A program made the translations under genes and the position numbers. From a virus, in UHGV virus genome UHGV-0211740: a stretch of DNA of 64,000 nt; one strand, given 5' to 3'. Of the stretch, positions 34,769-52,499 are shown piece after piece. Below the pieces are notes generated by a model. The model ran no database searches and had not been told where the DNA came from. It saw nothing but the letters and a program-made list of their open reading frames with translations. How positions within the stretch are numbered: the first letter of the stretch is position 1; each line of letters starts with the position of its first letter.

Positions 34769-35010
34769 AACTCCACTAGCAAAGTACTTTCAAAATGCCT
34801 CTCATGTAGACCATTATAAGGAACCACTTCCACAACACCATCACGGATATATGGAGTCATCATAGTGATATAATCCCCGAACGGGTTGGTATTATCACTA
34901 ACCACAACAACATGCTGCCCTTCCTTGGCAGAGTGCCAGATAGATCTGCACTTCATCATGTGCTCTAGGGCACCTGGTAAAATTTTGTTACGTTCTTTAC
35001 GAGTTTTCAT
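34765..35010 (-). CDS. hypothetical protein
   Basis: ORF track; operon context. Confidence 0.45.
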   Translation of the reverse strand: MKTRKERNKILPGALEHMMKCRSIWHSAKEGQHVVVVSDNTNPFGDYITMMTPYIRDGVVEVVPYNGLHERHFESTLLVEL

Positions 35011-35453
35011 AATAGAAATAGCTCCTTATGAAAATGGGCTTTCAATTTCTCACCAAGAAACTTCTTAATGCCTTCTTCAAGGGTGTTCTCGATGTAGTCC
35101 AACTTAACCGCTTCGATGGACATATCATAGATCGCCAGCTCTAAGCTGTCAAGCCCCATCATAGCATGAACCATAAGATTTTCATCTTCAGATACGTTCA
35201 GTGGGCTACCTATAACATCTGTAGGTAGAATAGTCTCCCAGTTATTCTGGGAGGTTCTATCACCATCCACTTTACGGCGGAGCTCGAAGGTATTCTTAGT
35301 GTAAAACACTTCATAAGAAACGATACGGCTGTCGCTCTCGTAATAAACGAAGTTCAGGTAGGAGCCGAGCCGCAGACGGCAAACTTCTACCCCAAACCAT
35401 TGTTTCTTATAGGAATTCAGGCTAATGCTGTCGCATTCACGTTTGCTCAACAC
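35007..35453 (-). CDS. hypothetical protein
   Basis: ORF track; operon context. Confidence 0.5.
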   Translation of the reverse strand: MLSKRECDSISLNSYKKQWFGVEVCRLRLGSYLNFVYYESDSRIVSYEVFYTKNTFELRRKVDGDRTSQNNWETILPTDVIGSPLNVSEDENLMVHAMMGLDSLELAIYDMSIEAVKLDYIENTLEEGIKKFLGEKLKAHFHKELFLL

Positions 35454-35469
35454 GGCTCTCTCCTTTTTG

Positions 35470-35703
35470 TTAATCTTCGTAAATAAGGATTTCTGCTTTA
35501 GGTTTTCGTGCTTTCAGGTCCAGCTCTATCCAGTGTACCATAGCTGTTTCAAGAAAAACAGCCTGGATACATCCGTCCTCAGCGTGACCAACCAGCATAA
35601 CAAGATCTTCAACTTCATCATCTGCATCACGAACATACAGAATCTCTCCAGATTCAAAGTCTTTCACAACCTGATTGTTGGATAATTTACGAATTTTTGC
35701 CAT
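35470..35703 (-). CDS. hypothetical small protein
   Basis: ORF track 35470..35754; internal ATG at 35703 has GGAGGG RBS and avoids overlap with next gene. Confidence 0.45.
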   Translation of the reverse strand: MAKIRKLSNNQVVKDFESGEILYVRDADDEVEDLVMLVGHAEDGCIQAVFLETAMVHWIELDLKARKPKAEILIYED

Positions 35704-35704
35704 A

Positions 35705-35968
35705 TTAGAAGCCCTCCAGGAAGCTTTTATAGAGGATGATTTCAGTGTCAACACCTGTTACAATCTTATCGTTGCGGATCTCGTCGGTAAGATAGGTGTC
35801 GAAACGCAGCACCTGTGTGGTATTGTCACACATCCACTCTGAGGTAACCATAGCGAAGATTTTGGTGTCTTCGTTGTCTGGTGTGAATGTTACAACTTCA
35901 CCACCCTTAAATTTTTCAATAGGTTGTGTGTTGGCTTTCGGTTCTGCTACAGTGATTTTCGTGGTCAT
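35705..35968 (-). CDS. hypothetical small protein
   Basis: ORF track; operon context. Confidence 0.45.
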   Translation of the reverse strand: MTTKITVAEPKANTQPIEKFKGGEVVTFTPDNEDTKIFAMVTSEWMCDNTTQVLRFDTYLTDEIRNDKIVTGVDTEIILYKSFLEGF

Positions 35969-36225
35969 TACTCTTCCTCCGTAGTTTCACCAAATACCTC
36001 GATACGAGCATCAAGCTCAGTTACTTTCAGCTCTCCAACAAAATCTTTCAGTTCTTTCTCGTCCAGATCGTAAGCCCATACACAAGAAGAGCATGCAGAT
36101 TTCACAATCAGTAGAGTAGATACACGGCCTGACTCTGTAATCATGCTCACAATGGTTCCAACAGGGAACGTGTTGATGGCCTTTTTAACTGGACGTTCAG
36201 TTTTAATTACTACCTCTGTTGCCAT
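35968..36225 (-). CDS. hypothetical small protein
   Basis: ORF track; operon context. Confidence 0.45.
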   Translation of the reverse strand: MATEVVIKTERPVKKAINTFPVGTIVSMITESGRVSTLLIVKSACSSCVWAYDLDEKELKDFVGELKVTELDARIEVFGETTEEE

Positions 36226-36236
36226 AAAATCCTCTC

Positions 36237-37697
36237 TTACTTAGCATACTCGATTAACTCTACAGTTTTCCCAAAGCTTGGGATATAATTTTTATTATAC
36301 CCCTCTGTGAGAACCCACAAAGTATCGTACTTTTTCCACTTGTTGTCAACAGCCTTTTGTTCAAAGTTATGCTCAAAGTATAGGTCGGTCAGGACGATGA
36401 CATCTTTTGCATTTGGTATGTTGGCATCCAGATACTCGAACACGCAAGCGGCTGTTGTGCCCCATGTTGAGTGGACCCCATAATTAATCATCTCGTCGAT
36501 GTTGCCACGAGTGTATACTTTGACCTCTCCAACCTCAGTTGACCAACAGAACATCGTAACCTTAAACTCTTTATACAGATTGCACAATCCAGTGATCTCA
36601 TTGAACATTTTCTTTAAAGTTCTTTGAGAGATCGAGCCAGAAACGTCTAAAGCCACCACAATATCTATCGTGTTTTCCGGATTACGCCCAGGAACAATAA
36701 CGTGCTGATTCTTGTTTATAGCTCCAACTTTCCGCATTGTGCTGGTCAAAGATCCGGATCGGCGACCAGGCTTTCTGTAGGTCAGTTCAGCCTTTCGTTT
36801 AGACAACATACGTTGCTTAATGATGTCTATATAGTTGATTACAGGCTTACCTCTATTCTTGACAAACTCTCGCACAGCCTCAGGGCAACGACCTCCGGAA
36901 GCTTGCATTGCTGCCTCCAGCATGTCACCAGAGTCCTGCATGGCCTGATCTTTATCAGATTGGCTAATTACAGGTTGTGGCTGATCATACCCCATAGCCT
37001 TTCCGAGATCATCACTGGCCCCACCGTTTCCACTCATGTGATCATCGGTTTGTCGCTTATCTCCTTGAGGGTTCTCACCTTTGCCATTCTTACTTTTACT
37101 GTTATTCTGGTCTCTTTGCTTGTCAAGAACTGCATAGACGTTCTCAGCAATCCATCCATGAAACCTCATATCACAGTAGCAACTGGCTAAGAAGCCAAAA
37201 GGCTTACCTTTTACGAAGGTAGTGCTTTTCCCCTTCGGGAAGAAAACACAAGGTGGCTTGCTAAAGTCAACCACAAGACCTGTATTGATAACGTGATCAC
37301 AAGCAATATTGAACAGTTCCGGTTCAAAGCTTTTACCACGGACCAGATGATCACAGATAATATGTCCAACCTCATGCGACAGAAGAAAGGCCACCTCTTT
37401 CACAGATTTTGGGGAATAGAAAACCTCAGCCATCTCAAACTGCTCGTCAGTAAGAGAGGCTTTAAGAATAGCCCTGCGCTCATCAGCCAACCCCATAATG
37501 AACTCAGGGCTGTAATAGATGCGTTTATGGTCGGTTGCCATGGTGGAGCACCATGTGTGGTTTTCTACGAACTGCAACCCTGACAACAGTGTGCCATAAA
37601 ACGGCAGCTTTTCAAGGAGATACATACGTGCAGCCTGCAACATTCTCAGGGCATCATCTTTTTGCGAGGCAATGATTTCTGAACTTCTGCTATCCAT
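36237..37697 (-). CDS. putative metallopeptidase (HExxH) fused to von Willebrand factor A domain
   Basis: N-terminal LSHEVGHIICDH; C-terminal DIVVALDVSGSIS (MIDAS DxSxS); GGAG RBS. Confidence 0.6.
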   Translation of the reverse strand: MDSRSSEIIASQKDDALRMLQAARMYLLEKLPFYGTLLSGLQFVENHTWCSTMATDHKRIYYSPEFIMGLADERRAILKASLTDEQFEMAEVFYSPKSVKEVAFLLSHEVGHIICDHLVRGKSFEPELFNIACDHVINTGLVVDFSKPPCVFFPKGKSTTFVKGKPFGFLASCYCDMRFHGWIAENVYAVLDKQRDQNNSKSKNGKGENPQGDKRQTDDHMSGNGGASDDLGKAMGYDQPQPVISQSDKDQAMQDSGDMLEAAMQASGGRCPEAVREFVKNRGKPVINYIDIIKQRMLSKRKAELTYRKPGRRSGSLTSTMRKVGAINKNQHVIVPGRNPENTIDIVVALDVSGSISQRTLKKMFNEITGLCNLYKEFKVTMFCWSTEVGEVKVYTRGNIDEMINYGVHSTWGTTAACVFEYLDANIPNAKDVIVLTDLYFEHNFEQKAVDNKWKKYDTLWVLTEGYNKNYIPSFGKTVELIEYAK

Positions 37698-37710
37698 TAA
37701 AACTCCAGAA

Positions 37711-37725
37711 GGGGCCGTTGGCCCC
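37711..37725 (-). promoter_or_regulatory. intergenic hairpin GGGGCC-GTT-GGCCCC
   Basis: Between the stop of 37731..38717 and the start of 36237..37697; same motif family as the 31986 and 7130 hairpins. Confidence 0.35.
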
Positions 37726-37730
37726 TGTCA

Positions 37731-38717
37731 TTATTTAACGTGTTTGAAAATACTCGCCAACTCGGTCATCGTCATGCGGGTAGTCTTCATAAGGTCTGTC
37801 ATAGCTTTTTCCATAATCGGTGATACTACCATGAAGTTGCCTTTAGCGAAACCTTTGTTCCAGTCGGTCACCAACAGAGGTTTGATCCCAGCCCCAAGAC
37901 GCTCACCAGTTAAAGCACAGTATTTGCGAATATACGAACTCTTGAATTGGCTAAAGGATAGATCAACTTTCATACCTGCATCGTAGAATGTTTGGCAATA
38001 GAAAGTGTAAGCCTTGGCAATCTCAACATCATCAGGCAGTGCAGGAACCTCTTCTGCAACCTCCTCTTCGACCTCCTGAGGCTCTTTTTCCTCTTCAGAG
38101 GTCTGTTGCACCATTTCTTCAATTTCTTCTGCCACAGGCTCGTTTACGATGTCTGAAATGTGTTTGTTGGCTGCACGCTCTGCCATAAAATTCTTAAAGT
38201 CCTGCATTGGTGACATATCTTCCTCCTCTTCGTCAAATAGTGCTAGTTTATCTTCTTCTGTCCCATATTGCAAGATGAAATCTTCAAAAGTATATTCATC
38301 TTTTAATTCCTCCATCCTCTCTTCGCTCAGGTGGAGCATCATTTGTTGGACAATTTTTCGATCAGTTTTGTCCTTAATCAAGATTGCGGTCGTTTTATCT
38401 ACCAGACAATCCTTAAGGGAGTTGCACCGAAGTCCAACCACACAACAGTTATCGATTGCATAAGGACCTTCATCGTTTATCCGCTCCAAAGATGGGTAGA
38501 ACGGATTCCCCAGTCCGTTTTCATCTGTGTGCATGTCAAAAGGAATAAGGGTGTAGTCGCACACCCCCTCTCCTAAAAGTTTTTTACCAAATAGGAGGTA
38601 TTCTTCCCATGACAGGTTGAACTCTATATCTCGTTTCCGTGCATTATTCTGTTTACGTCTATATTTTTTGAGCAGGCGCTCTAACTCTTCTGGTGTATAA
38701 TATTTTTCAAGATTCAT
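37731..38717 (-). CDS. hypothetical protein with acidic glutamate-rich central region
   Basis: ORF track 37731..38912; start placed at ATG 38717 so the gene does not run through the divergent promoters. Confidence 0.45.
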   Translation of the reverse strand: MNLEKYYTPEELERLLKKYRRKQNNARKRDIEFNLSWEEYLLFGKKLLGEGVCDYTLIPFDMHTDENGLGNPFYPSLERINDEGPYAIDNCCVVGLRCNSLKDCLVDKTTAILIKDKTDRKIVQQMMLHLSEERMEELKDEYTFEDFILQYGTEEDKLALFDEEEEDMSPMQDFKNFMAERAANKHISDIVNEPVAEEIEEMVQQTSEEEKEPQEVEEEVAEEVPALPDDVEIAKAYTFYCQTFYDAGMKVDLSFSQFKSSYIRKYCALTGERLGAGIKPLLVTDWNKGFAKGNFMVVSPIMEKAMTDLMKTTRMTMTELASIFKHVK

Positions 38718-38748
38718 GAGTTGTCTCTTGTGCTCTGTAGGTGAAGAA

Positions 38749-38777
38749 ATCTTATCAAGTGCCTCGACAGATGTCAA
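38749..38777 (-). promoter_or_regulatory. sigma70-like promoter on minus strand, TTGACA-17-TAAGAT
   Basis: Reverse complement read directly; drives the leftward block. Confidence 0.5.
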
Positions 38778-38790
38778 CCTCAAAAACGTA

Positions 38791-38819
38791 TTGACTTTAC
38801 TATAAATCCACGATATAGT
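38791..38819 (+). promoter_or_regulatory. sigma70-like promoter TTGACT-17-TATAGT
   Basis: Back-to-back with the minus-strand promoter; drives the rightward block. Confidence 0.5.
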
Positions 38820-38859
38820 GCACCCATTCGAAAGAAAACGAACACAGGAGCACTTAATC

Positions 38860-39759
38860 ATGGCAAATCTTAACAGCTTTAGCACTCGGTGGAAACAAGA
38901 TATCACAACCAATCTCTCAGCAGGTGATATCCTTTCTGCAATTTACGAGGCTTTGGATGATAAAGCTACTTCAAAATCGGTTTGTACCAACCCGCTAATT
39001 CCTATAGTAATGAAGGTTATTGAGCGTAGACTGGTATCCGGATCTGATAAGTGGACATATCTGGATAATGGAGGCCACACTTACTCCAACGGCTATGTCG
39101 ATATAAAAGTAGAATATGCGGTATCATATCGCCGGAGCGGCTCTGTAACTTTCAACTTCTCTGGTGGTTTCCGATCTCTGGCAACTTCACCTTTTGTTTC
39201 CTCAGAGGAGAAGTTTGAACTTCCGTTCCTTTGGATGATGGCTAACGCGACAGGCAAAACCCCCGTAAGCATTCGCGTAAAATACAACTACAACGGATCT
39301 AGTAAGATCTATGCCGAGAGTGTCTCAGCAAGTTTTTATTTTGTGATGGGGGATGGAATCCTCAAACATATAAAGATGTGCGATATGCATGATGTTATAA
39401 ATGAAGTGACTGATAAGAATGTTCTGGTGAAGGATCTCAACAATTTTTATACACCTGGGGACTATTACGTCAACCGTCCACTGTGCATCTTTAATGCCGC
39501 ACACCCTTTAGGTGAGTATTTGATCGCCAATAGCGATATTGCCAATAACCGCTTCGAGGTAGCAAGAGTACAGAATGAGGTGTTGACATCTTGCAAGAGC
39601 GGTGATAAGTTTACCGAAGAGGAGATGGGTGTTTTAGAAATGATGGGATATAAGTGTAGCCTTTGGGTAGATGAGGTGTTTAATGACGGCATCTATGGAC
39701 AGGATATTTACCCGTTAAAGAAGTATACTGATTCCAGTTTAATTTACGCGGAGATTTGA
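38860..39759 (+). CDS. hypothetical protein
   Basis: ORF track 38818..39759; ATG 38860 with AGGAG RBS downstream of promoter. Confidence 0.55.
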   Translation: MANLNSFSTRWKQDITTNLSAGDILSAIYEALDDKATSKSVCTNPLIPIVMKVIERRLVSGSDKWTYLDNGGHTYSNGYVDIKVEYAVSYRRSGSVTFNFSGGFRSLATSPFVSSEEKFELPFLWMMANATGKTPVSIRVKYNYNGSSKIYAESVSASFYFVMGDGILKHIKMCDMHDVINEVTDKNVLVKDLNNFYTPGDYYVNRPLCIFNAAHPLGEYLIANSDIANNRFEVARVQNEVLTSCKSGDKFTEEEMGVLEMMGYKCSLWVDEVFNDGIYGQDIYPLKKYTDSSLIYAEI

Positions 39760-41043: not shown

Positions 41044-41334
41044 ATGCCGCTTAAAAGAGTAATAAATATGTTATATCAGAAACACGTAACGCGTGCAGAA
41101 AAAGAGTTAAATTTTGACAAAGTTATCCACAGATGTTGTTATGGAAAAATCGGAAGACAGTTAAGAGGGTGCCCCACATTCTTTCACTCCAGTAGACGGC
41201 TAAGTCCTGAAGAGGCAACAGCAGAAATGGTTGCATATAACTGGGAAGTTGTGTACGATATTGACAGATCCGATGTGACATCTGTTTTGGAAAACTTTGA
41301 AAACACTTACACACAAGTAGAGGACTTTTACTAA
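41044..41334 (+). CDS. hypothetical small protein
   Basis: ORF track 41029..41334 (GTG); ATG 41044 chosen. Confidence 0.4.
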   Translation: MPLKRVINMLYQKHVTRAEKELNFDKVIHRCCYGKIGRQLRGCPTFFHSSRRLSPEEATAEMVAYNWEVVYDIDRSDVTSVLENFENTYTQVEDFY

Positions 41335-42518
41335 TGTCAAGAAACGTATTTGAAAGTGGTCAAATTACTGTCCGCGAGTTGCCAGCTATTATTAAGTTTG
41401 CCCAACGGCATAATCGATCTGTTCTGATTTTAGGACCGATGGGTGTTGGGAAGAGCCAAGTGATGAAGCAGATCGCTGACAGCATGTTCGGTGAGCGAGA
41501 TGACAACCTGGTTGATGTTCGGCTGTCAGATAAAGACCCTGCTGACTTGTCTGGGTTACCTATCCCTGTAGAGTCGGATGGGACTACACGCACAGTGTTT
41601 GCAATTCCAGAATTTTGGCCTGCAGATCCGGACTGGAGCGGAATTATCTTCCTAGATGAGCTTACTCATGCAGATAACTACCTGCAGAAGGTTGCAATGC
41701 AAATTATGCTCGACCACAAGTGTGGCACCTATGCATTCCCTAAGAGTTCTGTTTTTGTAGCTGCAGGAAACCGTGCTACAGACGGTGCTGTTCTTTCGGC
41801 GCTAGAAGCTCCTCTAGCTAACCGCTTTATCATTGTAGAAGTTACAAGCAATGCAGAGGTGTTTATTGAGGACTATGCATTCCTTAATGGGGTGCACTCC
41901 TCGGTAATTGGATATCTGAAAAGAGTCCCATCAGCCATCGATAATTATGAGGCCATGGCTGAGATTAATTGTCCAGCTTTTGCTACACCGCGATCTTGGG
42001 TTGCTGCATCTGACATCCTGCACGATTTTGACAGCGGTATTATTTCTGACGCTATGGCTCGTGTTCTTCTGCAAGGTGCTATCGGTCACACTGCAGCGGT
42101 AGAAATCTGGACCTACCACACCAAGAAACGAAACTTGCCAGAAATCGGTCGGATTATGGCAGGGGGTTGCAAAGAGTATGTAGGTCCTAAGCAGCCAGAT
42201 ATTTTGTGGATTCTGGGGTCTGAAGGGTGTATCGCTATTCGTAACATGATGGAAAATGCAAGTATCTCCGACGAAGATCTTGTCAGCTGTGTGGCAAACT
42301 TCCTTGATTTCCTTTGGGAAAATTTCAAGGATGAGAACCGAGACTTTGTATTCTCAGTCTTTATGGCGATGATGAAACCCAACGCCCTAGGAAATGCCTT
42401 ACTTATTGGTAAAGGCCGGGACAAGATCGTTGCTCAGCTGATCAAAGCATACCCGAACCTGATGAAGATTGTAAAAGAGTTTGGTGAAGAGTTTAGCGCC
42501 ATTTTAGCTAAAGCTTGA
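41334..42518 (+). CDS. AAA+ ATPase, MoxR/AAA_5-like
   Basis: Walker A GPMGVGKSQ; Walker B IIFLDELTHA. Confidence 0.6.
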   Translation: MSRNVFESGQITVRELPAIIKFAQRHNRSVLILGPMGVGKSQVMKQIADSMFGERDDNLVDVRLSDKDPADLSGLPIPVESDGTTRTVFAIPEFWPADPDWSGIIFLDELTHADNYLQKVAMQIMLDHKCGTYAFPKSSVFVAAGNRATDGAVLSALEAPLANRFIIVEVTSNAEVFIEDYAFLNGVHSSVIGYLKRVPSAIDNYEAMAEINCPAFATPRSWVAASDILHDFDSGIISDAMARVLLQGAIGHTAAVEIWTYHTKKRNLPEIGRIMAGGCKEYVGPKQPDILWILGSEGCIAIRNMMENASISDEDLVSCVANFLDFLWENFKDENRDFVFSVFMAMMKPNALGNALLIGKGRDKIVAQLIKAYPNLMKIVKEFGEEFSAILAKA

Positions 42519-42922: not shown

Positions 42923-42950
42923 CCCCGCTTCGGCGGGGATTTTCTATTTG
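42923..42950 (+). terminator. rho-independent terminator
   Basis: CCCCGC-TTCG-GCGGGG then ATTTTCTATTT. Confidence 0.55.
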
Positions 42951-42958: not shown

Positions 42959-43459
42959 GTGAAAATTAAAATCTTTGCTATTATTTTGAGCGCATTTTTA
43001 TCGCTGCCTGTTGTTGCAGCACCAAAACAAAAAGTATATCACACCTGCAAGCCATCGGATACTAAGGAAAACATTCTAGCATGCAATATCTACAGGGAGG
43101 CTAGAGGGGATGGCACGATGGGTATGCTGGCATCAGGGTTTGCCACACTAAACAGGAAATCTCACCCCAAATACCCGGACACCATAAGAAAGATTGTCTA
43201 CCAACCTAACCAGTTTTCGTGGACAAACCACGGCAAAACTTTTAAGGTGATAGAAAAAGATTCATGGGATCACGCTAAAAGTCTTGCAAAGATGCTTCTA
43301 AAGGTCTATAATAACAACCATGTTGCATACATGGCTATGGATATAACAGGTGGAGCAACACACTATCATACAACAAAAGTACGACCGAAATGGGCAAAAA
43401 AGATGCAGAGGACAGCCCAATTCGGGAGTCATATCTACTACAAGGAGCGCAATAAATGA
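42959..43459 (+). CDS. SleB/CwlJ-type cell wall hydrolase with N-terminal signal peptide
   Basis: ORF track 42839..43459; GTG 42959 after GGAG; signal-like KIKIFAIILSAFLSLPVVAAP; motifs NIYREARGDG...LNR...QFSW. Confidence 0.65.
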   Translation: MKIKIFAIILSAFLSLPVVAAPKQKVYHTCKPSDTKENILACNIYREARGDGTMGMLASGFATLNRKSHPKYPDTIRKIVYQPNQFSWTNHGKTFKVIEKDSWDHAKSLAKMLLKVYNNNHVAYMAMDITGGATHYHTTKVRPKWAKKMQRTAQFGSHIYYKERNK

Positions 43460-45438
43460 TTGTAAACAGTAATGAAACTAAAGCAGTGCTAACTGGGAAT
43501 TTGGAGGTCACAAGGGGATCAATTTCTCTGAACAAAGAGACTTTTGGGTTAATCATTAAAGGGATTTATGAAGATAAGGTGCTGGCAAGCTGCCGTGAAC
43601 CAATCTTCAATGCTGTGGACTCCCATGTTGAGTCTGGACGTGGTGATGTTCCGATCATCATTCACTCCCCTACAGATCTTGAACCATACTTCTTTGTGCA
43701 GGACGTTGGCCTCGGTATGTCAGAAGAGATGGTCCGCAACACTTTCATGAACCTCGGTGAGTCAACCAAGCGCAACAGCAACGCTCTGGTAGGCAATAAA
43801 GGTGTTGGTTCAAAGGCCCCGTTCAGCATGGTAGACACTTTCGATGTAATCAGTGTGCACAATGGTGTGGAAAGCACATACCTATTGTTCTTGGATCAGG
43901 GCATCCCAAATGTCACCAAGATCCGTGAGCGGAAGACTGAAGAGCACAACGGGGTAAAAGTTCAGTTTCATGTTAAGAAAGAGCATGTTCTGAAATATCG
44001 CACTGCTATTGCATCATGTCTGCGCTATGCAAAATTCCCGTTCACCGTCACCGATCCAATGACGAGCAAAATGCTGGAGGGGGATAAGGTAGAGGCGCAG
44101 TATTATTATGAAAAAGATGGTTGGAAGATGACCATCCTGAAGGGCTATACCAGCTCTGACGAGAGTCGTGTGGTAATGGGTCACCAACCTTACCGTTCTA
44201 AGTTCCTGGAAACACTAACAGATTATCCTGCAATTTGTGTAGAGATCCCTATCGGAGACTGCAATATTAACCCAGGGCGTGAATGGACCATAGAAGGTCA
44301 CGATGATGGTGGATTCCAAGAGCGTTTGGAAGCTTTTGTCAAAGAAGGTATTCGCCTTCGTGGAGCAGAAGTTGTTGCAGAACTGGAGACAGCAAAAACA
44401 TCCTCAGAAGCACGCGAGATGATGAAGAACAGTGGAGTGTTCGGGCACATTTTCGGTAAGAATTTTATGTATAACCGTTGGGAAGAAACAGGGTTAGGTA
44501 GTTTGGGGGACTGCGAGATCTTCGCGGGTGGCTTAAATAAAGGCCGCATAGGCTACGCTTGTTACGGAAAGGTAGAATTCTTACGAGGAGTCTATTTAGT
44601 ATTTAACGACGGAGACGGTAAATATAACCGAAATAAGTGTAACTACTTAAGCGAGATCACCGGACGCAACGTTTTCTATTGCCGGAACACGGATCTGGTA
44701 AAAGAGTTTAAAGAGGCGGCACACCATCCGTTCTTTGCAGATACGGTCAAATTGTTATCAGAGCTCCCTCGCCGACCTGTGAAGAAAGGTGAAACAAAAA
44801 CTCGTTATGAGCCCGGTTATTGGGTTAAAAAACTTGAGAAGGATGGTTACTTCCGTCGTGAGCGTATTACCAAGGCAGAGTTCAGGAAGATTAAGCACTG
44901 CATACCGTATGAGGGGGATATCCAACGTGGAAGTTGTTGGCTAGGTCAGATGAGCAACATCTACCAGCAAGATTATGACCGTGTGCGTGCAGCACTTCAG
45001 ATCCCTGAAGGGGAAGATCTGTACCTGGTATCGGAATCTCGTCTGCTTTGGACTGATCCTAATTGCCAATATGTTACAGAGAAGAATGTGGAACATTTGT
45101 TGAAAGAGGATGCTTGGAAATTCTTACTGACTCGCGCAGCAAATGAAACTTCATACGACAGCCTGTACAGACAGTTAGGTAAAATTATACCCATGCAGGA
45201 TTTTGGAAATTATCGGCCACATTTCCACAAGTGGGAAGGTAGCACCACGTGGAAGTACGGTGAGCTGAATCATCGTGCCAAAGTCTTAATCGCCAACCGA
45301 GTTAAGTGCGGGAAGGCCTATATTGCAAGATTGGAAAAGAAATATCCACTTTTAAAGCATGTGGGCTTGAAATATTGGGACACTCCTGCTATGATTGAAT
45401 ACCGTGAACTGATTGATACAAAGAATAACATCAAATAA
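43456..45438 (+). CDS. GHKL-family ATPase domain protein (Hsp90/MORC/histidine-kinase-like fold)
   Basis: Bergerat-fold motifs in order: EPIFNAVDS, DVGLGMS, GNKGVGSKAPFS. Confidence 0.5.
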   Translation: MIVNSNETKAVLTGNLEVTRGSISLNKETFGLIIKGIYEDKVLASCREPIFNAVDSHVESGRGDVPIIIHSPTDLEPYFFVQDVGLGMSEEMVRNTFMNLGESTKRNSNALVGNKGVGSKAPFSMVDTFDVISVHNGVESTYLLFLDQGIPNVTKIRERKTEEHNGVKVQFHVKKEHVLKYRTAIASCLRYAKFPFTVTDPMTSKMLEGDKVEAQYYYEKDGWKMTILKGYTSSDESRVVMGHQPYRSKFLETLTDYPAICVEIPIGDCNINPGREWTIEGHDDGGFQERLEAFVKEGIRLRGAEVVAELETAKTSSEAREMMKNSGVFGHIFGKNFMYNRWEETGLGSLGDCEIFAGGLNKGRIGYACYGKVEFLRGVYLVFNDGDGKYNRNKCNYLSEITGRNVFYCRNTDLVKEFKEAAHHPFFADTVKLLSELPRRPVKKGETKTRYEPGYWVKKLEKDGYFRRERITKAEFRKIKHCIPYEGDIQRGSCWLGQMSNIYQQDYDRVRAALQIPEGEDLYLVSESRLLWTDPNCQYVTEKNVEHLLKEDAWKFLLTRAANETSYDSLYRQLGKIIPMQDFGNYRPHFHKWEGSTTWKYGELNHRAKVLIANRVKCGKAYIARLEKKYPLLKHVGLKYWDTPAMIEYRELIDTKNNIK

Positions 45439-45448
45439 GGAGACCAAG

Positions 45449-46654
45449 ATGATTTTCATCTACGAACATTTCAAAACCCGTAAAGAAGCACGAGACCGCC
45501 GTGCAGAACTTGAGAAGAAGGGTTTCACATGTGCCATTGAGAAAGGAGACACAACCTGGACACTGGCAGTGGGTGCCCCAGAGTTGTTCGATCCTGACCG
45601 TGACAGCGTCTGCTACACCCGTGAGGATTTTGAAACCCGTGAAGAGGCCCGTTTATTTCGATATGGACTGGAAGATAACGGTAAGTACGCCATGATCTTA
45701 GACTTAGGCGAAGGTTCCGTTAAACGTTGGGGCGTGGTATACCCACTGTGTGTTGTTCACGGTGTGGGGTTCACTGGGGTAGCAGTTAAGTCAGAAGAAC
45801 CTTCGGTAGAAGTCAAAGACCCGGTGCTGGAGGTGGTGAGCAGTGTGTCTCAGCAACAGACTCGAAGCATCGAGCCTTTGGTAGTTATTTGTGGAGAACT
45901 CCTCCAGATCACCTGCAACGAAGGTATTTTTGAAATTCGCCGTAGCGAAAGTGAGGAAGTTTACCAGAAAGTCTTCGACCATATCTCTGTTCAGGAATAT
46001 GACGAGGCAATTGGTGAAATCCTTATCTGGCTGGAACGCAAGAATGAGTTCACTACACTGGCAGACAACCTGATCATGAAAGATGGTAAGCTCTACTACT
46101 ACGGTGTAGAGATGCGATCTACCATTGCAAAGAAAATTGAGAAAGATTATGCAGATGGAACACTGGATGACCGCTATGTGAAATTCCTAGTTCGCCTGTT
46201 ACGCAATCCGTCTGCAAAATCTGTAAACATGCTCTACGATTTTATGCAGGCAAACGACATTCAGATTGCAGAAGATGGTCGAATCATTTGCTACAAAGGG
46301 GTTCAGTTTAACGGCGACAAGTGGGTGGATTGGCACAGTGGTAAAGTCCCACAATACCAGGGAGCTTTTGTATCCATGCCTCGTAACTTTGTAGAGGATG
46401 ATCCGGAAGCTGCATGCTCTTATGGTCTGCACTGTGCCAGCAAAGAGTATGCAAAGAGCTACGGCACTGTGATGACGGTTATGGTTGACCCTGCCGATGT
46501 AGTCAGTGTACCTTACCAACACAACAGCGCTAAGTGCCGTGCATGCCGCTACGAAATCGTAGTAGCTCCAGAATCGCGCAAAGATGGAGACCCAATCGAG
46601 TACGTGGTTGACCGCGACGGTAACACTATCGACATTATCTACGAGGAGGCGTAA
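45449..46654 (+). CDS. hypothetical protein with two N-terminal ~45-aa repeats
   Basis: ORF track 45413..46654; ATG 45449 after AAGGAG; repeated FKTRKEARDRRAELEKKGF / FETREEARLFRYGLEDNGKY modules. Confidence 0.5.
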   Translation: MIFIYEHFKTRKEARDRRAELEKKGFTCAIEKGDTTWTLAVGAPELFDPDRDSVCYTREDFETREEARLFRYGLEDNGKYAMILDLGEGSVKRWGVVYPLCVVHGVGFTGVAVKSEEPSVEVKDPVLEVVSSVSQQQTRSIEPLVVICGELLQITCNEGIFEIRRSESEEVYQKVFDHISVQEYDEAIGEILIWLERKNEFTTLADNLIMKDGKLYYYGVEMRSTIAKKIEKDYADGTLDDRYVKFLVRLLRNPSAKSVNMLYDFMQANDIQIAEDGRIICYKGVQFNGDKWVDWHSGKVPQYQGAFVSMPRNFVEDDPEAACSYGLHCASKEYAKSYGTVMTVMVDPADVVSVPYQHNSAKCRACRYEIVVAPESRKDGDPIEYVVDRDGNTIDIIYEEA

Positions 46655-48024
46655 TGGAAAAAGGGCAGTACGATGTAGGCACAGATGCTGCCCTTGTTGC
46701 AATCATGAGTGGTGAGAATGTCTTCGTAAGTGGACCTGGTGGAACCGGGAAGACATATCTTATCAACATGATCCAGTCCATGTATGGAGACTCTTGCATA
46801 ACGGTTGCCCCGACAGGGGTAGCCGCTTTAAACGTTAATGGAGCAACAGCGCACCGAACTTTCGATCTTGCCGCAGGTGTGAGCATGGAGTCAGACTGGA
46901 CAGCAATAAGGGCAAAAACAGCAAAGCCTCTGAAAAGCAAGGCATTTACCATCCTAATTATCGATGAAATCTCTATGATCCGTGCTGACAAGTTCATAGA
47001 GATGGATAGAAAACTCCGCTTTCTTCGGAAAAATGACAAACCTTTCGGAGGCATTCAGGTGTTATTGTTTGGAGATTTCTACCAAGCTCCTCCAGTTGTC
47101 TCTTCTATGGAGAAAGAAGCCTACTTCAACTTCTACCACACAGATCTGTGTTGCTATACAGAGTCTTGGGAGGATCTTAATCTTCACAATATAGCTTTAG
47201 TAGACCAGTTCCGTCAGGAATCTGTTCGCTTCGCCACAATGTTGAACTGTGTTCGTGAAGGTCGTCGCATAAAAGAGGTTGTAGCAGAGCTTAACACTCG
47301 TTGCTATCATGGTGGTGTCCCAACAGATGCCTTGACCATCTGTGCCACCAATAAGCAAGCAGAGGAGGTGAACAGACGTTTCTATGATGCCATCAAGGCT
47401 CCAGAGAAGACCTACATTGGTAAAATGAAAGGTAAGTTCCCCTCCACACTGCCTGTGGAGCAGGAAATGAGGCTGAAGATAGGGATGAAGGTTATGATAA
47501 CCTCAAACGATGTTGACCCGACACACAAAGTTCCGTACTATGTCAACGGGACACGCGCCACAGTGGTAAAATTCAAGACCAAGTCTGTGGTGGTTGAGCT
47601 GGAAGACGGGACACAGGTTGAAATTGAGCCGAGATTGTGGGAGAATAACGAGTACAAACCTTCCCAGAGGTACAATATTGCCGAAAGGAAGATGGAGAAG
47701 TTCATAGAGAGGGTTGTGATCGGGTCTTATGAGCAACTTCCTTTGAAATCTGGGTACGCAGTAACATCGCATAAAAGTCAAGGACTTACGTTAGATTGTT
47801 ACAACCTAGACCTCGGAAAGAACGGAGCTTTCTCTCCCGGAATGACGTATGTTGCCTTGAGTCGGGTTAAGACGATACAAGGAATAAACTTGTTGCGTCC
47901 ATTAAGAGAGGTGGATATTATTGTTGACCCGAGAGTCGTAGAGTTTTATAATACAACTTTCCCTGGCTTAGACGAGAAAGTCAGGAAAGATTTTGAAACT
48001 AGAGCAGAAAAGGGGGACGTATGA
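46654..48024 (+). CDS. SF1B helicase, Dda/RecD/Pif1-like
   Basis: Walker A GPGGTGKT; Walker B ILIIDEISM; GDFYQAPPV; VTSHKSQGLT. Confidence 0.75.
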   Translation: MEKGQYDVGTDAALVAIMSGENVFVSGPGGTGKTYLINMIQSMYGDSCITVAPTGVAALNVNGATAHRTFDLAAGVSMESDWTAIRAKTAKPLKSKAFTILIIDEISMIRADKFIEMDRKLRFLRKNDKPFGGIQVLLFGDFYQAPPVVSSMEKEAYFNFYHTDLCCYTESWEDLNLHNIALVDQFRQESVRFATMLNCVREGRRIKEVVAELNTRCYHGGVPTDALTICATNKQAEEVNRRFYDAIKAPEKTYIGKMKGKFPSTLPVEQEMRLKIGMKVMITSNDVDPTHKVPYYVNGTRATVVKFKTKSVVVELEDGTQVEIEPRLWENNEYKPSQRYNIAERKMEKFIERVVIGSYEQLPLKSGYAVTSHKSQGLTLDCYNLDLGKNGAFSPGMTYVALSRVKTIQGINLLRPLREVDIIVDPRVVEFYNTTFPGLDEKVRKDFETRAEKGDV

Positions 48025-48362
48025 GTTTGTGGAGAAATATAGTTAACTACGTGTGCGGTAATCCAAATCCTGAAGAGAAGGATGTTGTGATTCACGATTT
48101 TACTAAAAGATCTCGTGAAAAAGACCTACTGCTAATGAGAGTTGTTGATAAAGATCCTGCAGTAGGGGACTGGGCAGGTTTTGCGTTCACATCGGACAAA
48201 TATACCTTTAACAAAGGTGACTATCTTGTTGTGGATTTTAACGAAGACATCGAGGGTGCTGAACCTTACTACCAAACCCTTATTGTTGCAGAGTGTATCG
48301 AGCTCTCTGCAACCGCGCACAGTTTAATTCTTTTTGAGCTTGACTCTGAAGATCTTCAGTAG
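48021..48362 (+). CDS. hypothetical protein
   Basis: ORF track; 4-nt overlap with helicase. Confidence 0.45.
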   Translation: MSLWRNIVNYVCGNPNPEEKDVVIHDFTKRSREKDLLLMRVVDKDPAVGDWAGFAFTSDKYTFNKGDYLVVDFNEDIEGAEPYYQTLIVAECIELSATAHSLILFELDSEDLQ

Positions 48363-48379
48363 TAAGATGTGAGTATAAA

Positions 48380-48397
48380 GGGGAGGAACTCCTCCCC
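48380..48397. promoter_or_regulatory. intergenic hairpin GGGGAGG-AACT-CCTCCCC
   Basis: 7-bp perfect stem; no T-tract; same GGGAGG...CCTCCC family as the hairpin before the polymerase gene. Confidence 0.35.
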
Positions 48398-48422
48398 ACA
48401 AAACTAAGGAGAGCACCAAACG

Positions 48423-48725
48423 ATGAAGCGTTATAAACCCTATACTTTTGAAATCGATTTCGAACTGGATGATATGTTTACTGTGGAGGCTCAGGCGGTT
48501 GTCCAGTTGCCAGACCCTGAGTGTCATGATTCCGATGTTGATTATTATGGATTTAGACAGATCACGGATGTGCATGTTTACCACAACGGTGAAGAGATTG
48601 ACTTTCACCAACTACCAAACGATCTGCGCCACTCGATTTACAAACGTGCAGCCCGTGAACTGGAGTCTTATCTAGATGCAGCGACAACAGCGGCTGCATT
48701 TGCTGAAGAGGTAGGAGGTTTCTGA
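48423..48725 (+). CDS. hypothetical small protein
   Basis: ORF track; AAGGAGAG RBS. Confidence 0.5.
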   Translation: MKRYKPYTFEIDFELDDMFTVEAQAVVQLPDPECHDSDVDYYGFRQITDVHVYHNGEEIDFHQLPNDLRHSIYKRAARELESYLDAATTAAAFAEEVGGF

Positions 48726-49615: not shown

Positions 49616-49620
49616 CACTA

Positions 49621-49648
49621 GGCCCTGCCCGAAAGGGTGGGGCTTTTT
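49621..49648 (+). terminator. rho-independent terminator (GGCCCTGCC-GAAA-GGGTGGGGC-TTTTT)
   Basis: GNRA-loop hairpin then T5; near-identical copy at 60037. Confidence 0.6.
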
Positions 49649-49666
49649 GCATTAGGAGACAGCAAA

Positions 49667-50431
49667 TTGAAATTTATCTATAAAGAACACTACCACAAAG
49701 GTGTTGTGTGGAGTCTATTTGACGGGTCTGGCGGTGCAGTCATTGACTGGGCAAAAGCTGGGTATCTGTGCCTGTGCTTTAACGCAGAAGGTGCTGACCA
49801 CGGCAGTTATGCAGAGGTGATAACCGATCATCCAAATATTCACTATGTAGATTATTGGATTGATCCATGGTTTCCTCAGGAAACTTTCTGCATGTACCCA
49901 GCTCCGGACTTTGTTCTTGCATTTCCTCCGTGCACTCACTTAGCGGTGTCCGGTGCTGCACACTTTAAGAAGAAACTGGCTAAGGATCCGCTGATCCAAA
50001 TTAATGCTGTAAAGGATGCTCGGGTTGCGGAAGAGTTGGGAGAGATTTACGATTGCCCGTGGCATGTAGAGAATCCTGTTGGAGTTATGTCCACATTGTG
50101 GCGCAAACCTGACTACCGTTTTCACCCTTCTGATTATGGCGGGTATTTACCGGAAGATGATGTAAACCCATGGTTTCCTGAATTTATAGCTCCACGTGAT
50201 GCCTATCCAAAAATAACTTGCGGATGGATAGGTAATGGATTTATAATCCCAGCCACAAAACCTGTCCCGCAAATAGTTGATGTGGTTAGCGGTTATTCCA
50301 TGCAACACGCTAAGCTAGGTGGAAAAAGTGCAAGGACGAAGATGATTCGAAGCCTTACACCACGTGGCTGGGCAAAAGCAGTATTCTTAGCAAACGAGCC
50401 TGCAGTAAGGAGCAGAATTAATGGGAAGTAA
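49667..50431 (+). CDS. DNA cytosine-5 methyltransferase-like protein (short, atypical)
   Basis: ORF track 49637..50431; TTG 49667 after AGGAG; motif I LFDGSGG, motif IV-like FPPCTHLAVSG, motif VI-like VENPVG; start uncertain. Confidence 0.4.
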   Translation: MKFIYKEHYHKGVVWSLFDGSGGAVIDWAKAGYLCLCFNAEGADHGSYAEVITDHPNIHYVDYWIDPWFPQETFCMYPAPDFVLAFPPCTHLAVSGAAHFKKKLAKDPLIQINAVKDARVAEELGEIYDCPWHVENPVGVMSTLWRKPDYRFHPSDYGGYLPEDDVNPWFPEFIAPRDAYPKITCGWIGNGFIIPATKPVPQIVDVVSGYSMQHAKLGGKSARTKMIRSLTPRGWAKAVFLANEPAVRSRINGK

Positions 50432-52499
50432 ATTCATGGCATCTGCATATAACCGTTTCGGTGAGCCAAACCCGAAAGCAACTAAGTATAAAAGTGGGGG
50501 AAGTGTGAAACGAGACTATCGTGATGAAAAAGAAGTTGAAACTGTAGAGACTGTTTTAGAAAATACTAAAATTGTTCCTGTTCCACAACAAAATATCGGA
50601 CTGATGGCTGCACAGTATTTCGGTGTACGATCATCCCTATCCCAAGAGGATGGTGTAACTGTTACTGCCACCTACTTCCCGTATTATGACCGCTACGGGA
50701 ATCTATCTGGCTTTAAAAAGCGCGACTGGACAATCCCTAAAGAGCAAAGGGGCCATTTCTCAGTTGTTGGCATAGTAAAAGCCAACTCCCAGATGTTTGG
50801 TCAAAAGCTGTGTGCATCCTCCAACAACCGTAAGCAGATTAACGTTTGTGAGGGGGAAGGTGATGTTATTGCAGCGTGGCAGGCTGCATATCAGATACAA
50901 GTAAAAGGAATTCTCACCAATGCCAAGGCCCCAGCAAAGGTTAAGCAGTGGGCTAAAGAGGTCCAGGACGGGATCGATGCAGTTATCAACGGGGGTGATC
51001 TGGCAGGAAAACCATGTCTACCTTTTGTTGGAATTAACTGTGGGTGTGCAAACGCAGTAGATACTTTTGCAAACAATGAGAAATTTATCCGTAGCTACGG
51101 AACAGTGGTCCTTGCAATGGACAACGATGCAGCTAACGAGGTAGAGAAGCAAAAACACGTTATCAAAGGTGTTGAAGCCACACATAATATTGCAGCATTT
51201 TTGATGGCTGATAATGTTTACCATGTGGAATACCCTGGTGAGGTGAACGACCCTGACGGTGTAAAAGATATCCGTGACATGCTGAAGGCTAAAAAGCTGG
51301 AAGATATTGTCAACATGTTCCGTCACCCAGTTAAATATGTGCCTGATGCTGTATCTGATTTAGAAGACTTTTCCATTGAATCTCTTCGTAAGAAGACTTC
51401 CAATGGCGTGGATATCAGTGCAGAGTTCCCTAAACTACAGAAGATGCTGAAAGGACTCCACAAAGGCACCTTGATGATGCTGACAGGCCCATCTGGTGGT
51501 GGTAAAACAACTGTAGCCAAGAAACTGGAACACTGCATTGCAAGATATTTGATGGATCCGACATGCCCTAAAGCCGATGATTATGAAGAGGATGATCGCC
51601 TGTGTATGATCCACCTTGAAGAGGATCCTGAGGAAGCAATAAACTCTCTATACGCTAACCAGTTGGGGTTTGATGTTAAAGAGTTTGTTGAAGACCCTAG
51701 TCAGTTCCTGACCGATCAGGAGCATGCTGAGATTCACCAATCTTGGGCCAAAGCTGGAAAAATCAAAGTGTTCAAGCATTTTGGTTCTATCCCTGTAGAT
51801 GAGCTGATCACTAAGCTTAAACAAATGGTGTGTCTGTATCACTGCCGTTACATTGTGCTGGATCACCTGTCCATGGTAATTTCAGGGCTTAATGTTAAGG
51901 ATGAGCGAAAAGAACTTGACATGGCTATGACTCAACTAGCCGCGTTCTGTAAGCAGTTTAATGTATTTATCTTGGTGATCGCTCACCTGAAACGCACAGA
52001 GATTGTGCCTCCAAAGGACAAGGATGGGAATCCGTTACCTTTCTGGTATCCTGTACGAAAAGAGAACCTTCGAGGTAGTGCTGGATTGGAACAACTTAGC
52101 TGGGTAGTTGTTGGGGTAGAGGCAGAAGAGATGGTGGATCGTTCCCGTGGACGTGTCCGGCTGGTAGGTCTTAAAAACCGCCCAGCAAAAACGTTAGGCA
52201 TTGCGGACACCTTAGTTATGGATCCTCACACAGGTAAGTTCCATGATGCCAGCAATTGGTACTGGGACAAAGAAATGCAGATGTTCACAGACGGCGAAGG
52301 TGGGGAGGTTGTTTGGAGACCTCAAGCTATGTTTGAGGATCAAGAGCACGCAGTTGTAGAAACACCTGTAGGCAGGGTTGTGGCTGATAAGGTTGTAACT
52401 CCTACTGTTAACCCTGTTGACACACAAGAAGACCTTCCGTATGATGATCCGTCCTCTGACCCTGTTCCCGGTTTTGAAGACGATGAAACACCTTTTTAA
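50421..52499 (+). CDS. primase-helicase (TOPRIM plus DnaB-family SF4 helicase)
   Basis: TOPRIM CEGEGD and MDNDAANE; helicase Walker A GPSGGGKTT, Walker B IVLDHLS. Confidence 0.7.
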   Translation: MGSKFMASAYNRFGEPNPKATKYKSGGSVKRDYRDEKEVETVETVLENTKIVPVPQQNIGLMAAQYFGVRSSLSQEDGVTVTATYFPYYDRYGNLSGFKKRDWTIPKEQRGHFSVVGIVKANSQMFGQKLCASSNNRKQINVCEGEGDVIAAWQAAYQIQVKGILTNAKAPAKVKQWAKEVQDGIDAVINGGDLAGKPCLPFVGINCGCANAVDTFANNEKFIRSYGTVVLAMDNDAANEVEKQKHVIKGVEATHNIAAFLMADNVYHVEYPGEVNDPDGVKDIRDMLKAKKLEDIVNMFRHPVKYVPDAVSDLEDFSIESLRKKTSNGVDISAEFPKLQKMLKGLHKGTLMMLTGPSGGGKTTVAKKLEHCIARYLMDPTCPKADDYEEDDRLCMIHLEEDPEEAINSLYANQLGFDVKEFVEDPSQFLTDQEHAEIHQSWAKAGKIKVFKHFGSIPVDELITKLKQMVCLYHCRYIVLDHLSMVISGLNVKDERKELDMAMTQLAAFCKQFNVFILVIAHLKRTEIVPPKDKDGNPLPFWYPVRKENLRGSAGLEQLSWVVVGVEAEEMVDRSRGRVRLVGLKNRPAKTLGIADTLVMDPHTGKFHDASNWYWDKEMQMFTDGEGGEVVWRPQAMFEDQEHAVVETPVGRVVADKVVTPTVNPVDTQEDLPYDDPSSDPVPGFEDDETPF

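What the first reader, a model, noticed from the sequence alone, without database searches (positions are those of the whole stretch)
43456..48024. GHKL ATPase, tandem-repeat protein and Dda-like helicase in one tight operon
The 660-aa protein has the three ATP-binding motifs of the GHKL fold in the right order, but the remaining ~500 residues are unassigned. It is followed within 11 nt by a protein with two ~45-aa N-terminal repeats and then, with overlapping stop and start, by a Dda/RecD-like helicase. GHKL ATPases are rare in phage replication modules.
Basis: partly seen in the sequence, partly recalled or inferred. Interest (0 to 1): 0.65.

Follow-up and report, generated by a model that had tools for sequence, protein, structure and literature searches.

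The report
rIIA–rIIB pair plus Pif1 helicase
The three genes are the classic phage rIIA and rIIB genes followed by a Pif1-type DNA helicase in an rV5-like E. coli phage; they are already annotated and, in a 97%-identical phage, already tested, so the finding is ordinary.

Summary
Three tightly packed + strand ORFs lie at 43456-48024. The first has the three GHKL ATP-binding motifs. The second has two N-terminal ~45-aa repeats. The third is an SF1B helicase.

The interpretation misses what they are. The window comes from a Vequintavirus (rV5/FV3-like E. coli myovirus). The 660-aa protein is rIIA (PHROG 612 over its full length, E 6e-124; T4 rIIA E 4e-21). The repeat protein is rIIB (T4 rIIB 36% identity, E 6e-39; Pfam Phage_T4_rIIB). 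The helicase belongs to the Pif1 family, not to Dda proper.

GenBank records of near-identical phages already carry these names. rIIA homologues occur in 2,643 of 50,697 phage records, so they are not rare. Phage EdH4 has 97%-identical RIIA and RIIB, and knockdown showed they are needed on lambda RexAB-expressing hosts.

The rIIA-rIIB pairing is kept in distant phages. The helicase adjacency is specific to the rV5-like lineage.

Two smaller points go beyond the papers I searched:
- rIIA looks specifically Hsp90-like. It has an ATPase domain plus a transducer domain, with an invariant Arg-Glu that aligns to the Hsp90 catalytic loop.
- This rIIB replaces T4's HTH-like N-terminus with two beta-alpha-beta-beta units that weakly resemble SPOR repeats.

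The parts
42923..42938 (+). Terminator-like GC hairpin (CCCCGCTTCGGCGGGG followed by a T-run), the likely upstream boundary of the transcription unit
   Evidence: The equivalent site is annotated as a terminator in phage EdH4.
42959..43459 (+). SleB/CwlJ-like secreted cell-wall hydrolase (166 aa from GTG 42959, with an N-terminal signal-like segment). It is the first gene of the unit and overlaps the rIIA start by ATGA.
   Evidence: Pfam Hydrolase_2 E 5.8e-19. Hydropathy 2.29 at residues 3-21 and the junction sequence. Annotated SleB or cell wall hydrolase in near-identical phages.
43456..45438 (+). rIIA (660 aa)
   Evidence: PHROG 612 'RIIA lysis inhibitor' E 6e-124, residues 1-658 on profile 1-724/725. 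T4 rIIA BLASTP 28% identity over 198 aa, E 4e-21. FV3 rIIA 99.5% identical. EdH4 97% identical.
43456..44040 (+). rIIA N-terminal GHKL (Bergerat-fold) ATPase domain, about residues 1-195. Motif I is at 43597-43620, motif II at 43702-43716 and motif III at 43792-43809.
   Evidence: The family profile hits only Hsp90-family chains among the best 60 PDB sequences, E 1.4e-8. hhalign against E. coli HtpG gives Prob 96.6, E 4.7e-10.
44041..44388 (+). rIIA second (transducer-like) domain, about residues 196-311. It carries the invariant R275-E276 (R275 codon 44278-44280) in the motif IGDCNINPGRE.
45437..45442 (+). Shine-Dalgarno-like AAGGAG, 6 nt upstream of the rIIB ATG. It supports ATG 45449 rather than TTG 45413 as the start.
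   Evidence: The same start is annotated in SYGMH1 and EdH4.
45449..46654 (+). rIIB (401 aa)
   Evidence: PHROG 609 'RIIB lysis inhibitor' E 1.2e-61. T4 rIIB 36% identity over 204 aa, E 6e-39. Homologues carry Pfam PF26926 Phage_T4_rIIB. EdH4 97% identical.
45455..45574 (+). rIIB N-terminal repeat 1 (residues 3-42, beta-alpha-beta-beta)
   Evidence: Pfam SPOR E 0.0014, 19.3 bits, below the cut-off of 21.
45611..45751 (+). rIIB N-terminal repeat 2 (residues 55-101, beta-alpha-beta-beta)
45878..46603 (+). Conserved rIIB core (about residues 144-385), the part shared with T4 rIIB
46654..48024 (+). Pif1-family SF1B DNA helicase (456 aa)
   Evidence: Pfam PIF1 E 1.8e-33. PDB 8bns E 3.4e-65 and bacterial Pif1 5fhd E 4.5e-57, nearly full length. 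PHROG 325 E 6.9e-111.
48021..48362 (+). 113-aa ORF of unknown function. Its start overlaps the helicase stop (ATGA).
   Evidence: PHROG 11869 E 6.8e-74, no function assigned. Junction sequence.
49620..49645 (+). Strong terminator-like hairpin (11 pairs followed by a T-run), the likely downstream end of the unit
   Evidence: The equivalent site is annotated as a terminator in EdH4.

Best explanation
This is the rII locus of a Vequintavirus (an rV5/FV3-like E. coli myovirus). It is followed by a lineage-specific neighbour, a Pif1-family helicase that opens the replication gene block.

rIIA is an ATPase of the GHKL superfamily with two recognisable domains: an ATP-binding Bergerat fold, then a transducer-like domain that supplies an invariant arginine (R275). 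rIIB has the conserved rIIB core preceded by two beta-alpha-beta-beta repeats.

Shown by homology and by published experiments on 97%-identical orthologues: the pair is dispensable on ordinary hosts but needed to grow on cells expressing the lambda RexAB abortive-infection system.

Inferred: rIIA works as an ATP-driven dimerising clamp, as Hsp90, MutL and GyrB do. Together with rIIB it acts early in infection at the membrane or replisome to stop Rex-type systems from collapsing the cell. In T-even phages rIIB itself is the protein that other defences (Tmn, CARD-gasdermin) detect.

The genes are probably co-transcribed from a unit bounded by hairpins at 42923-42938 and 49620-49645, together with a secreted SleB-like hydrolase upstream.
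For: - Identity of the phage: 121 phage records match at 80-99% nucleotide identity, almost all Vequintavirus. rIIB is 99.2% identical (DNA) and rIIA 99.5% identical (protein) to phage FV3.
- rIIA: PHROG 612 full length, E 6e-124; T4 rIIA E 4e-21.
- rIIB: T4 rIIB E 6e-39; PF26926 Phage_T4_rIIB on homologues.
- GHKL motifs are invariant in the family.
- Function: EdH4 RIIA and RIIB are 97% identical to the window proteins. PMC11879866 reports that knockdown of RIIA or RIIB in T4, MM02, EdH4, SUSP1 and N4 lowers plating efficiency on RexAB-expressing E. coli but not on Rex-free cells.
- rIIB as a trigger of defences: PMC10312443 and PMC13001434.
- Pairing: rIIA-rIIB adjacency is kept in loci with about 30% identity and in T4.
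- Helicase: Pfam PIF1 and solved Pif1 structures.
Against: - The molecular mechanism of rII proteins is still unknown in the literature I read. PMC8594841 calls the locus 'poorly understood' and PMC7824862 lists rIIA among poorly understood counter-defence systems.
- No ATPase assay or structure of any rIIA or rIIB turned up. The PDB sequence searches show no rII entry.
- The clamp model is an inference from the fold.
- The Rex result is stated in the paper's text for the five phages together. I did not inspect the EdH4 panels.
- The promoter scan is at chance level (19 found against 17.3 expected), so the operon boundaries rest on hairpins and gene packing only.
Confidence: 0.92

Rival explanations
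1. One reading: the GHKL ATPase, the repeat protein and the helicase form one three-component machine of the replication module. For example, an ATP-driven clamp and an adaptor might load or regulate the helicase.
For: - Start and stop codons overlap or lie 10 nt apart.
- The order rIIA-rIIB-PIF1 helicase is kept in relatives with only 35-49% rIIB identity.
- The primase/helicase and DNA polymerase lie 2.4-4.5 kb downstream.
- PMC13001434 cites older work describing RIIB as a membrane anchor of the T4 replisome.
Against: - In more distant phages rIIA and rIIB stay adjacent with no helicase nearby.
- In T4, dda lies 7 kb from rIIA with 16 annotated genes between them.
- rII knockdowns, including EdH4, have no effect on Rex-free hosts. 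That is not expected of a replication component.
- The conserved order in rV5-like phages can simply reflect collinear genomes.
Confidence: 0.07
2. rIIA acts on DNA like its MutL, MORC or type II topoisomerase relatives (a DNA-entrapping clamp) rather than on proteins or membranes.
For: - The EdH4 record's note for this CDS reads 'identical to putative DNA-biding rIIA protein [Escherichia phage APCEc02]'.
- T4 rIIB has an HTH-like N-terminus, and PMC7824862 regards rIIB as a transcription factor.
Against: - No Toprim, DNA-gate, MutL C-terminal or CW/S5-specific Pfam domain appears at E<=0.1.
- The sequence profile prefers Hsp90: all of the best 60 PDB sequences, as does Foldseek (top 50).
- This phage's rIIB lacks the HTH.
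Confidence: 0.12
3. The pair is a lysis-timing device, as the database name 'RIIA/RIIB lysis inhibitor' implies, working with the adjacent secreted cell-wall hydrolase.
For: - PHROG and GenBank names.
- The SleB-like hydrolase gene overlaps the rIIA start, and a Hydrolase_2 gene is also upstream in Klebsiella-phage relatives.
- The rIIB repeats weakly resemble peptidoglycan-binding SPOR repeats.
Against: - One clade of relatives lacks the hydrolase next to rIIA.
- rIIB has no signal peptide or conserved hydrophobic segment, so it would not reach the peptidoglycan.
- The SPOR match is below Pfam's cut-off and seen in only 2 of 23 homologues.
- From my own knowledge of T4: the rapid-lysis phenotype of rII mutants depends on the host and is not part of the rI/holin lysis-inhibition pathway.
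Confidence: 0.05

Closest known systems
Phage T4 rIIA/rIIB (Benzer's rII locus), and specifically the RIIA/RIIB of Vequintavirus EdH4, FV3 and rV5
   Same: - Two adjacent genes in the same order.
- rIIA has an N-terminal GHKL ATPase.
- The rIIB C-terminal core is conserved (36% identity to T4).
- 97-99% identical to the EdH4 and FV3 proteins.
- Anti-RexAB function shown for EdH4 (PMC11879866).
   Different: - Against T4, rIIA is 65 aa shorter and alignable by BLASTP only over the first ~200 residues.
- rIIB is 89 aa longer and carries two beta-alpha-beta-beta repeats where T4 has an HTH-like segment.
- The neighbours differ: a SleB-like hydrolase and a Pif1 helicase here.
Hsp90 family (HtpG, TRAP1, Grp94) and sacsin Hsp90-like domains
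   Same: - N-terminal motif RE(P/L)I.NA.D(S/A), plus D.G.GM and G..GVG boxes.
- Profile E 1.4e-8 to Hsp90 N-domains; HtpG hhalign E 4.7e-10.
- The Foldseek top 50 are all Hsp90-family chains.
- A second domain carries an invariant (S/G)RE loop that aligns to the HtpG catalytic loop NVSRE.
   Different: - Far below family thresholds: NCBIfam HSP90 17.9 bits against 455.
- The middle-domain alignment is statistically weak (E 0.002, Prob 14%).
- No recognisable Hsp90 C-terminal dimerisation domain.
- No evidence of chaperone activity.
Pif1-family SF1B helicases (bacterial Pif1, e.g. PDB 5fhd, 6s3e) and T4 Dda
   Same: Walker A and B motifs. Nearly full-length alignment to bacterial Pif1 (E about 1e-57). 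Same superfamily as Dda and RecD.
   Different: Only a marginal pairwise match to T4 Dda itself (E 2e-5 over 162 aa), so 'Dda-like' holds at superfamily level only.
SPOR domain (FtsN, DamX, RlpA, CwlC)
   Different: Below Pfam's cut-off and seen in only 2 of 23 homologues. No export signal, so septal peptidoglycan binding is implausible.

Membership tests
rIIA | Sequence membership in the rIIA family, including homology to T4 rIIA | tested here: met
   PHROG 612 E 6e-124 over the full length. T4 rIIA BLASTP E 4e-21. tblastn hits are annotated rIIA across many genera.
rIIA | N-terminal GHKL ATPase domain with motifs I-III | tested here: met
   Motifs located and invariant in 26 sequences. HATPase_c_3 is above its cut-off. 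Fold matches.
rIIA | Encoded directly upstream of rIIB | tested here: met
   10-nt gap. The same pairing is seen in distant loci.
rIIA/rIIB | Required for growth on Rex+ (lambda RexAB) hosts and dispensable otherwise | not testable with these tools
   Reported for EdH4 among five phages in PMC11879866. The EdH4 proteins are 97% identical to the window's.
rIIB (Pfam PF26926 Phage_T4_rIIB) | Conserved rIIB core domain | tested here: met
   T4 rIIB 36% identity over 204 aa, E 6e-39. PHROG 609 E 1.2e-61. PF26926 is precomputed on the 98%-identical P0001 and all listed homologues. This model was not returned by my own Pfam scan.
Hsp90 | Score above the curated family threshold | tested here: not met
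   NCBIfam PRK14083 'HSP90 family protein' 17.9 bits against a cut-off of 455. No Pfam HSP90 hit at E<=0.1.
Hsp90 | Hsp90-type N-domain signature | tested here: met
   The best 60 PDB sequences hit by the family profile are all Hsp90, TRAP1, Grp94 or HtpG, E 1.4e-8. hhalign against HtpG gives Prob 96.6.
Hsp90 | Middle domain with a catalytic-loop arginine (yeast R380, HtpG R336) | tested here: inconclusive
   The invariant R275-E276 aligns to HtpG NVSRE. The T4 rIIA to HtpG local alignment is reached by 2 of 500 shuffles. But hhalign on the middle region alone gives E 0.002 and Prob 14%, and I could not superpose coordinates.
Hsp90 | C-terminal dimerisation domain | tested here: not met
Type II topoisomerase ATPase subunit / MutL / MORC | Family-specific domains beyond the ATPase module (Toprim, DNA gate, MutL C-terminal domain, CW zinc finger) | tested here: not met
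   No such Pfam or NCBIfam hits. The structural match covers only about 250-270 residues of the ATPase plus transducer module.
Pif1 helicase (Pfam PF05970) | Score above the gathering threshold, with SF1B motifs | tested here: met
   116.4 bits against 25.9. Walker A and B motifs. Solved Pif1 structures at E 1e-54 to 1e-65.
T4 Dda | Close homology to Dda itself | tested here: not met
   BLASTP E 2e-5, 28% identity over 162 aa only. The PHROG 325 label 'Dda-like helicase' is a family name.
SPOR domain | Pfam PF05036 above its cut-off | tested here: not met

The most novel reading that the evidence does not exclude
rIIA is a very divergent viral offshoot of the Hsp90/sacsin branch of GHKL ATPases. 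On this reading it has an Hsp90-type N-domain plus a middle domain whose invariant (S/G)-R-E loop is the counterpart of the Hsp90 catalytic loop, and it counters Rex-type abortive infection by ATP-driven clamping or remodelling of a protein partner rather than of DNA.

Alongside it, rIIB is a modular adaptor. Its conserved core is combined with interchangeable N-terminal heads: HTH-like in T4, and two SPOR-like beta-alpha-beta-beta units in rV5-like phages.

No paper in the library I searched makes the Hsp90 link. One GenBank record does call an rIIA homologue 'ATP-dependent molecular chaperone'.
Probability: 0.35. Interest if true: 0.45.

Novelty: already known. Interest (0 to 1): 0.15.

Why it matters
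As a discovery it does not matter. The locus is the textbook rII pair, annotated in dozens of near-identical genomes and functionally tested in a 97%-identical phage.

What remains of interest is that the biochemical mechanism of rIIA/rIIB is still unsolved almost seventy years after Benzer. The analysis gives concrete handles for it:
- an invariant arginine (R275) in a transducer-like domain;
- Hsp90-type ATP-site residues (E48, N52, D83) that make ATPase-dead mutants easy to design;
- a domain swap at the rIIB N-terminus. This may bear on recognition by rIIB-sensing defences such as Tmn or CARD-gasdermin, but neither has been tested on this phage.

Tried and rejected
- Topoisomerase, MutL and MORC membership: rejected. 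Only the ATPase plus transducer module matches structurally, and no family-specific domains are found.
- Hsp90 membership proper: rejected on thresholds and on the missing C-terminal domain. Kept as a 'works like' hypothesis.
- Transmembrane segments: none convincing in rIIA. rIIB has a borderline hydrophobic stretch at residues 95-113 (Kyte-Doolittle 1.68) that is not conserved in homologues.
- Promoter scan: at chance level.
- tRNA scan of the window: none found.
- Literature searches for an rIIA-Hsp90/HtpG/MORC/Bergerat link: only Fc-receptor and unrelated papers came back.
- Two literature calls failed on term syntax, as did one reading call (51).
- I did not use the search of protein representatives, the third homologue search or the collection scans. 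The answer did not depend on them.
Full report
**What is in the sequence**

The ORF list confirms three consecutive + strand ORFs: 43456-45438 (660 aa), 45413/45449-46654 and 46654-48024 (456 aa). I read the junctions directly.
- The first ORF ends with TAA at 45436-45438. AAGGAG lies at 45437-45442 and an ATG at 45449, which gives a 10-nt gap and a 401-aa second protein.
- That protein's TAA shares its last base with the ATG of the third ORF.
An upstream SleB-like gene (GTG 42959) overlaps the first ORF by ATGA. The third ORF overlaps a 113-aa ORF by ATGA.
- A GC-rich hairpin with a T-run lies just upstream at 42923-42938, and a strong one at 49620-49645. Both positions are annotated as terminators in phage EdH4.
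- The promoter scan is at chance level.

**Where the window comes from**

Megablast of 43456-48024 finds 121 phage records at 80-99% identity, nearly all Vequintavirus, the rV5-like E. coli myoviruses. The closest is phage FV3, at 99.5% protein identity for the first ORF and 99.2% DNA identity for the second. In these records the three genes are already named rIIA, rIIB and helicase.

**Identity of the three proteins**

*First protein: rIIA.*
- It matches PHROG 612 'RIIA lysis inhibitor' over its whole length (E 6e-124) and Pfam HATPase_c_3 above its cut-off.
- It aligns to T4 rIIA at 28% identity over the first 198 residues (E 4e-21).

*Second protein: rIIB.*
- It matches PHROG 609 'RIIB lysis inhibitor' (E 1.2e-61) and T4 rIIB at 36% identity over 204 residues (E 6e-39).
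- Its homologues carry Pfam PF26926, Phage_T4_rIIB.

*Third protein: a Pif1-family SF1B helicase.*
- Pfam PIF1 scores 116 bits against a cut-off of 25.9.
- Solved Pif1-type helicases align nearly end to end at E 3e-65 to 5e-57.
- T4 Dda itself gives only E 2e-5.

The three GHKL motifs are present in order (E48xxxN52xxD55, D83xG85xG87, G113xxG116xG118). They are invariant in a 26-sequence alignment reaching 18% identity.

The rIIB repeats are real.
- The self-alignment scores 44 against 20.7 +/- 4.1 for shuffles, and 2 of 2000 shuffles reach it.
- The pattern F..R..AR...W is invariant in both copies across 23 homologues.
- The model shows two beta-alpha-beta-beta units at residues 3-42 and 55-101, followed by a low-confidence linker (residues 100-141) and the conserved core.

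**How common the family is, and what is linked to what**

tblastn finds rIIA homologues in 2,643 of 50,697 phage records, across Escherichia, Klebsiella, Vibrio, Pseudomonas, Streptomyces and other hosts. So this GHKL ATPase is not rare in phages.

The order (hydrolase)-rIIA-rIIB-Pif1 helicase is kept in relatives with 35-49% rIIB identity. In more distant loci rIIA and rIIB remain adjacent without a helicase. In T4, dda lies 7 kb away. The conserved unit is therefore the rIIA-rIIB pair. The helicase is a lineage-specific neighbour at the head of the replication block, with primase/helicase at 50421-52499 and DNA polymerase after it.

**What is known about function**

- PMC11879866 reports that knockdown of RIIA or RIIB in T4, MM02, EdH4, SUSP1 and N4 has no effect on Rex-free E. 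coli but lowers plating efficiency on cells expressing lambda RexAB.
- EdH4 is a Vequintavirus. Its RIIA and RIIB are each 97% identical to the window proteins.
- HIDEN-SEQ confirms the T4 result.
- T-even rIIB is also what two defence systems sense: the CARD-gasdermin system (PMC10312443) and Tmn (PMC13001434).
- PMC8594841 calls the locus long-known yet poorly understood.

**What the unassigned ~500 residues of rIIA look like**

The model (26-sequence alignment, pLDDT 84) gives two kinds of structural result.
- Foldseek: the top 50 hits are all Hsp90-family chains (TRAP1 E 5e-17).

So the first ~310 residues are a GHKL domain plus the transducer-type second domain shared by gyrase, Hsp90, MutL and MORC.

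Sequence evidence points to Hsp90 within that group.
- The rIIA family profile hits only Hsp90, TRAP1, Grp94 and HtpG among the best 60 PDB sequences (E 1.4e-8).
- hhalign against E. coli HtpG gives Prob 96.6 and E 4.7e-10 for the N-domain.
- Weak Pfam and NCBIfam hits are to sacsin and 'HSP90 family protein'.
- In the second domain, R275-E276 is invariant.
- Its context is IGDCNINPGRE here, IGDLDVAASRE in distant members and LDIAPSREAL in T4. That resembles the HtpG catalytic loop DLPLNVSRE and aligns to it.

The statistics for the second domain alone are weak (E 0.002, Prob 14%). No Hsp90-like C-terminal domain is detectable. rIIA is therefore not a member of the Hsp90 family by any threshold. 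It may, however, work like a GHL clamp with an arginine supplied by the second domain. Residues ~310-660 remain without a confident match.

**rIIB**

- rIIB has no export signal.
- T4 rIIB has an HTH-like segment at the corresponding place. The family thus has a conserved core with exchangeable N-terminal heads.

**Verdict**

It misses that this is the well-known rII locus. The function is known at the phenotypic level for a 97%-identical pair. The mechanism remains inferred. I rate the novelty as already known and the interest as low. The Hsp90-like reading of rIIA and the N-terminal swap in rIIB are modest leads for anyone working on the rII mechanism.

Noticed in passing
window 48362-48423: SYGMH1 and EdH4 carry a ~1.3-kb adenine methyltransferase gene between the 113-aa ORF and the next small ORF. 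The window has only a 60-nt spacer there, containing a GC hairpin at 48380-48397. This is a presence/absence polymorphism of a methylase gene within the genus.
   Followed up: partly
hits to window 43456-48024 and 45449-46654: Sixteen records named 'Campylobacter phage', fifteen of them with host C. jejuni. The seven listed are MG065647-MG065682 and are unannotated. The listed ones are about 94% identical to this E. coli Vequintavirus locus. This looks like mislabelled or contaminating phage genomes.
   Followed up: no
window 42959-43459: A SleB/CwlJ-like cell-wall hydrolase with a signal-peptide-like N-terminus overlaps the rIIA start. A Hydrolase_2 gene also sits upstream of rIIA in Klebsiella-phage relatives (L006, L007) but not in another clade (L008).
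   Followed up: partly
L006 7236-9518 versus L007 7236-8543: The Pif1 helicase orthologue is 760 aa in one Klebsiella-phage relative and 435 aa in another. This suggests an insertion, possibly an intein or homing element, in the longer gene.
   Followed up: no
protein P0005: A 498-aa database protein joins TPR repeats to a segment 100% identical to 55% of this rIIB. It comes from a single 3.3-kb contig and may be a chimeric assembly or a gene-calling artefact.
   Followed up: no
window 49637-50431: A 264-aa ORF matches PHROG 757 'DNA methyltransferase' (E 1e-86) but no Pfam family at E<=0.1. It overlaps the start of the primase/helicase gene.
   Followed up: no
hit H42, Erwinia phage Ea9-2 KF806588 22363-22848: The feature under this tblastn hit to rIIA is annotated 'ATP-dependent molecular chaperone'. 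This may be an annotation-level echo of the Hsp90 resemblance.
   Followed up: no
window 41334-42518: A MoxR-like AAA+ ATPase (PHROG 1297, E 3e-110) lies two genes upstream of the rII unit. A 126-aa ORF and the hairpin at 42923-42938 separate them.
   Followed up: no
window ~32000-39700: GC and AT skew change sign and the long ORFs run on the - strand. In SYGMH1 this block is annotated with a holin and an 'anti-sigma factor'. The + strand early/replication block that contains rII starts right after it.
   Followed up: no
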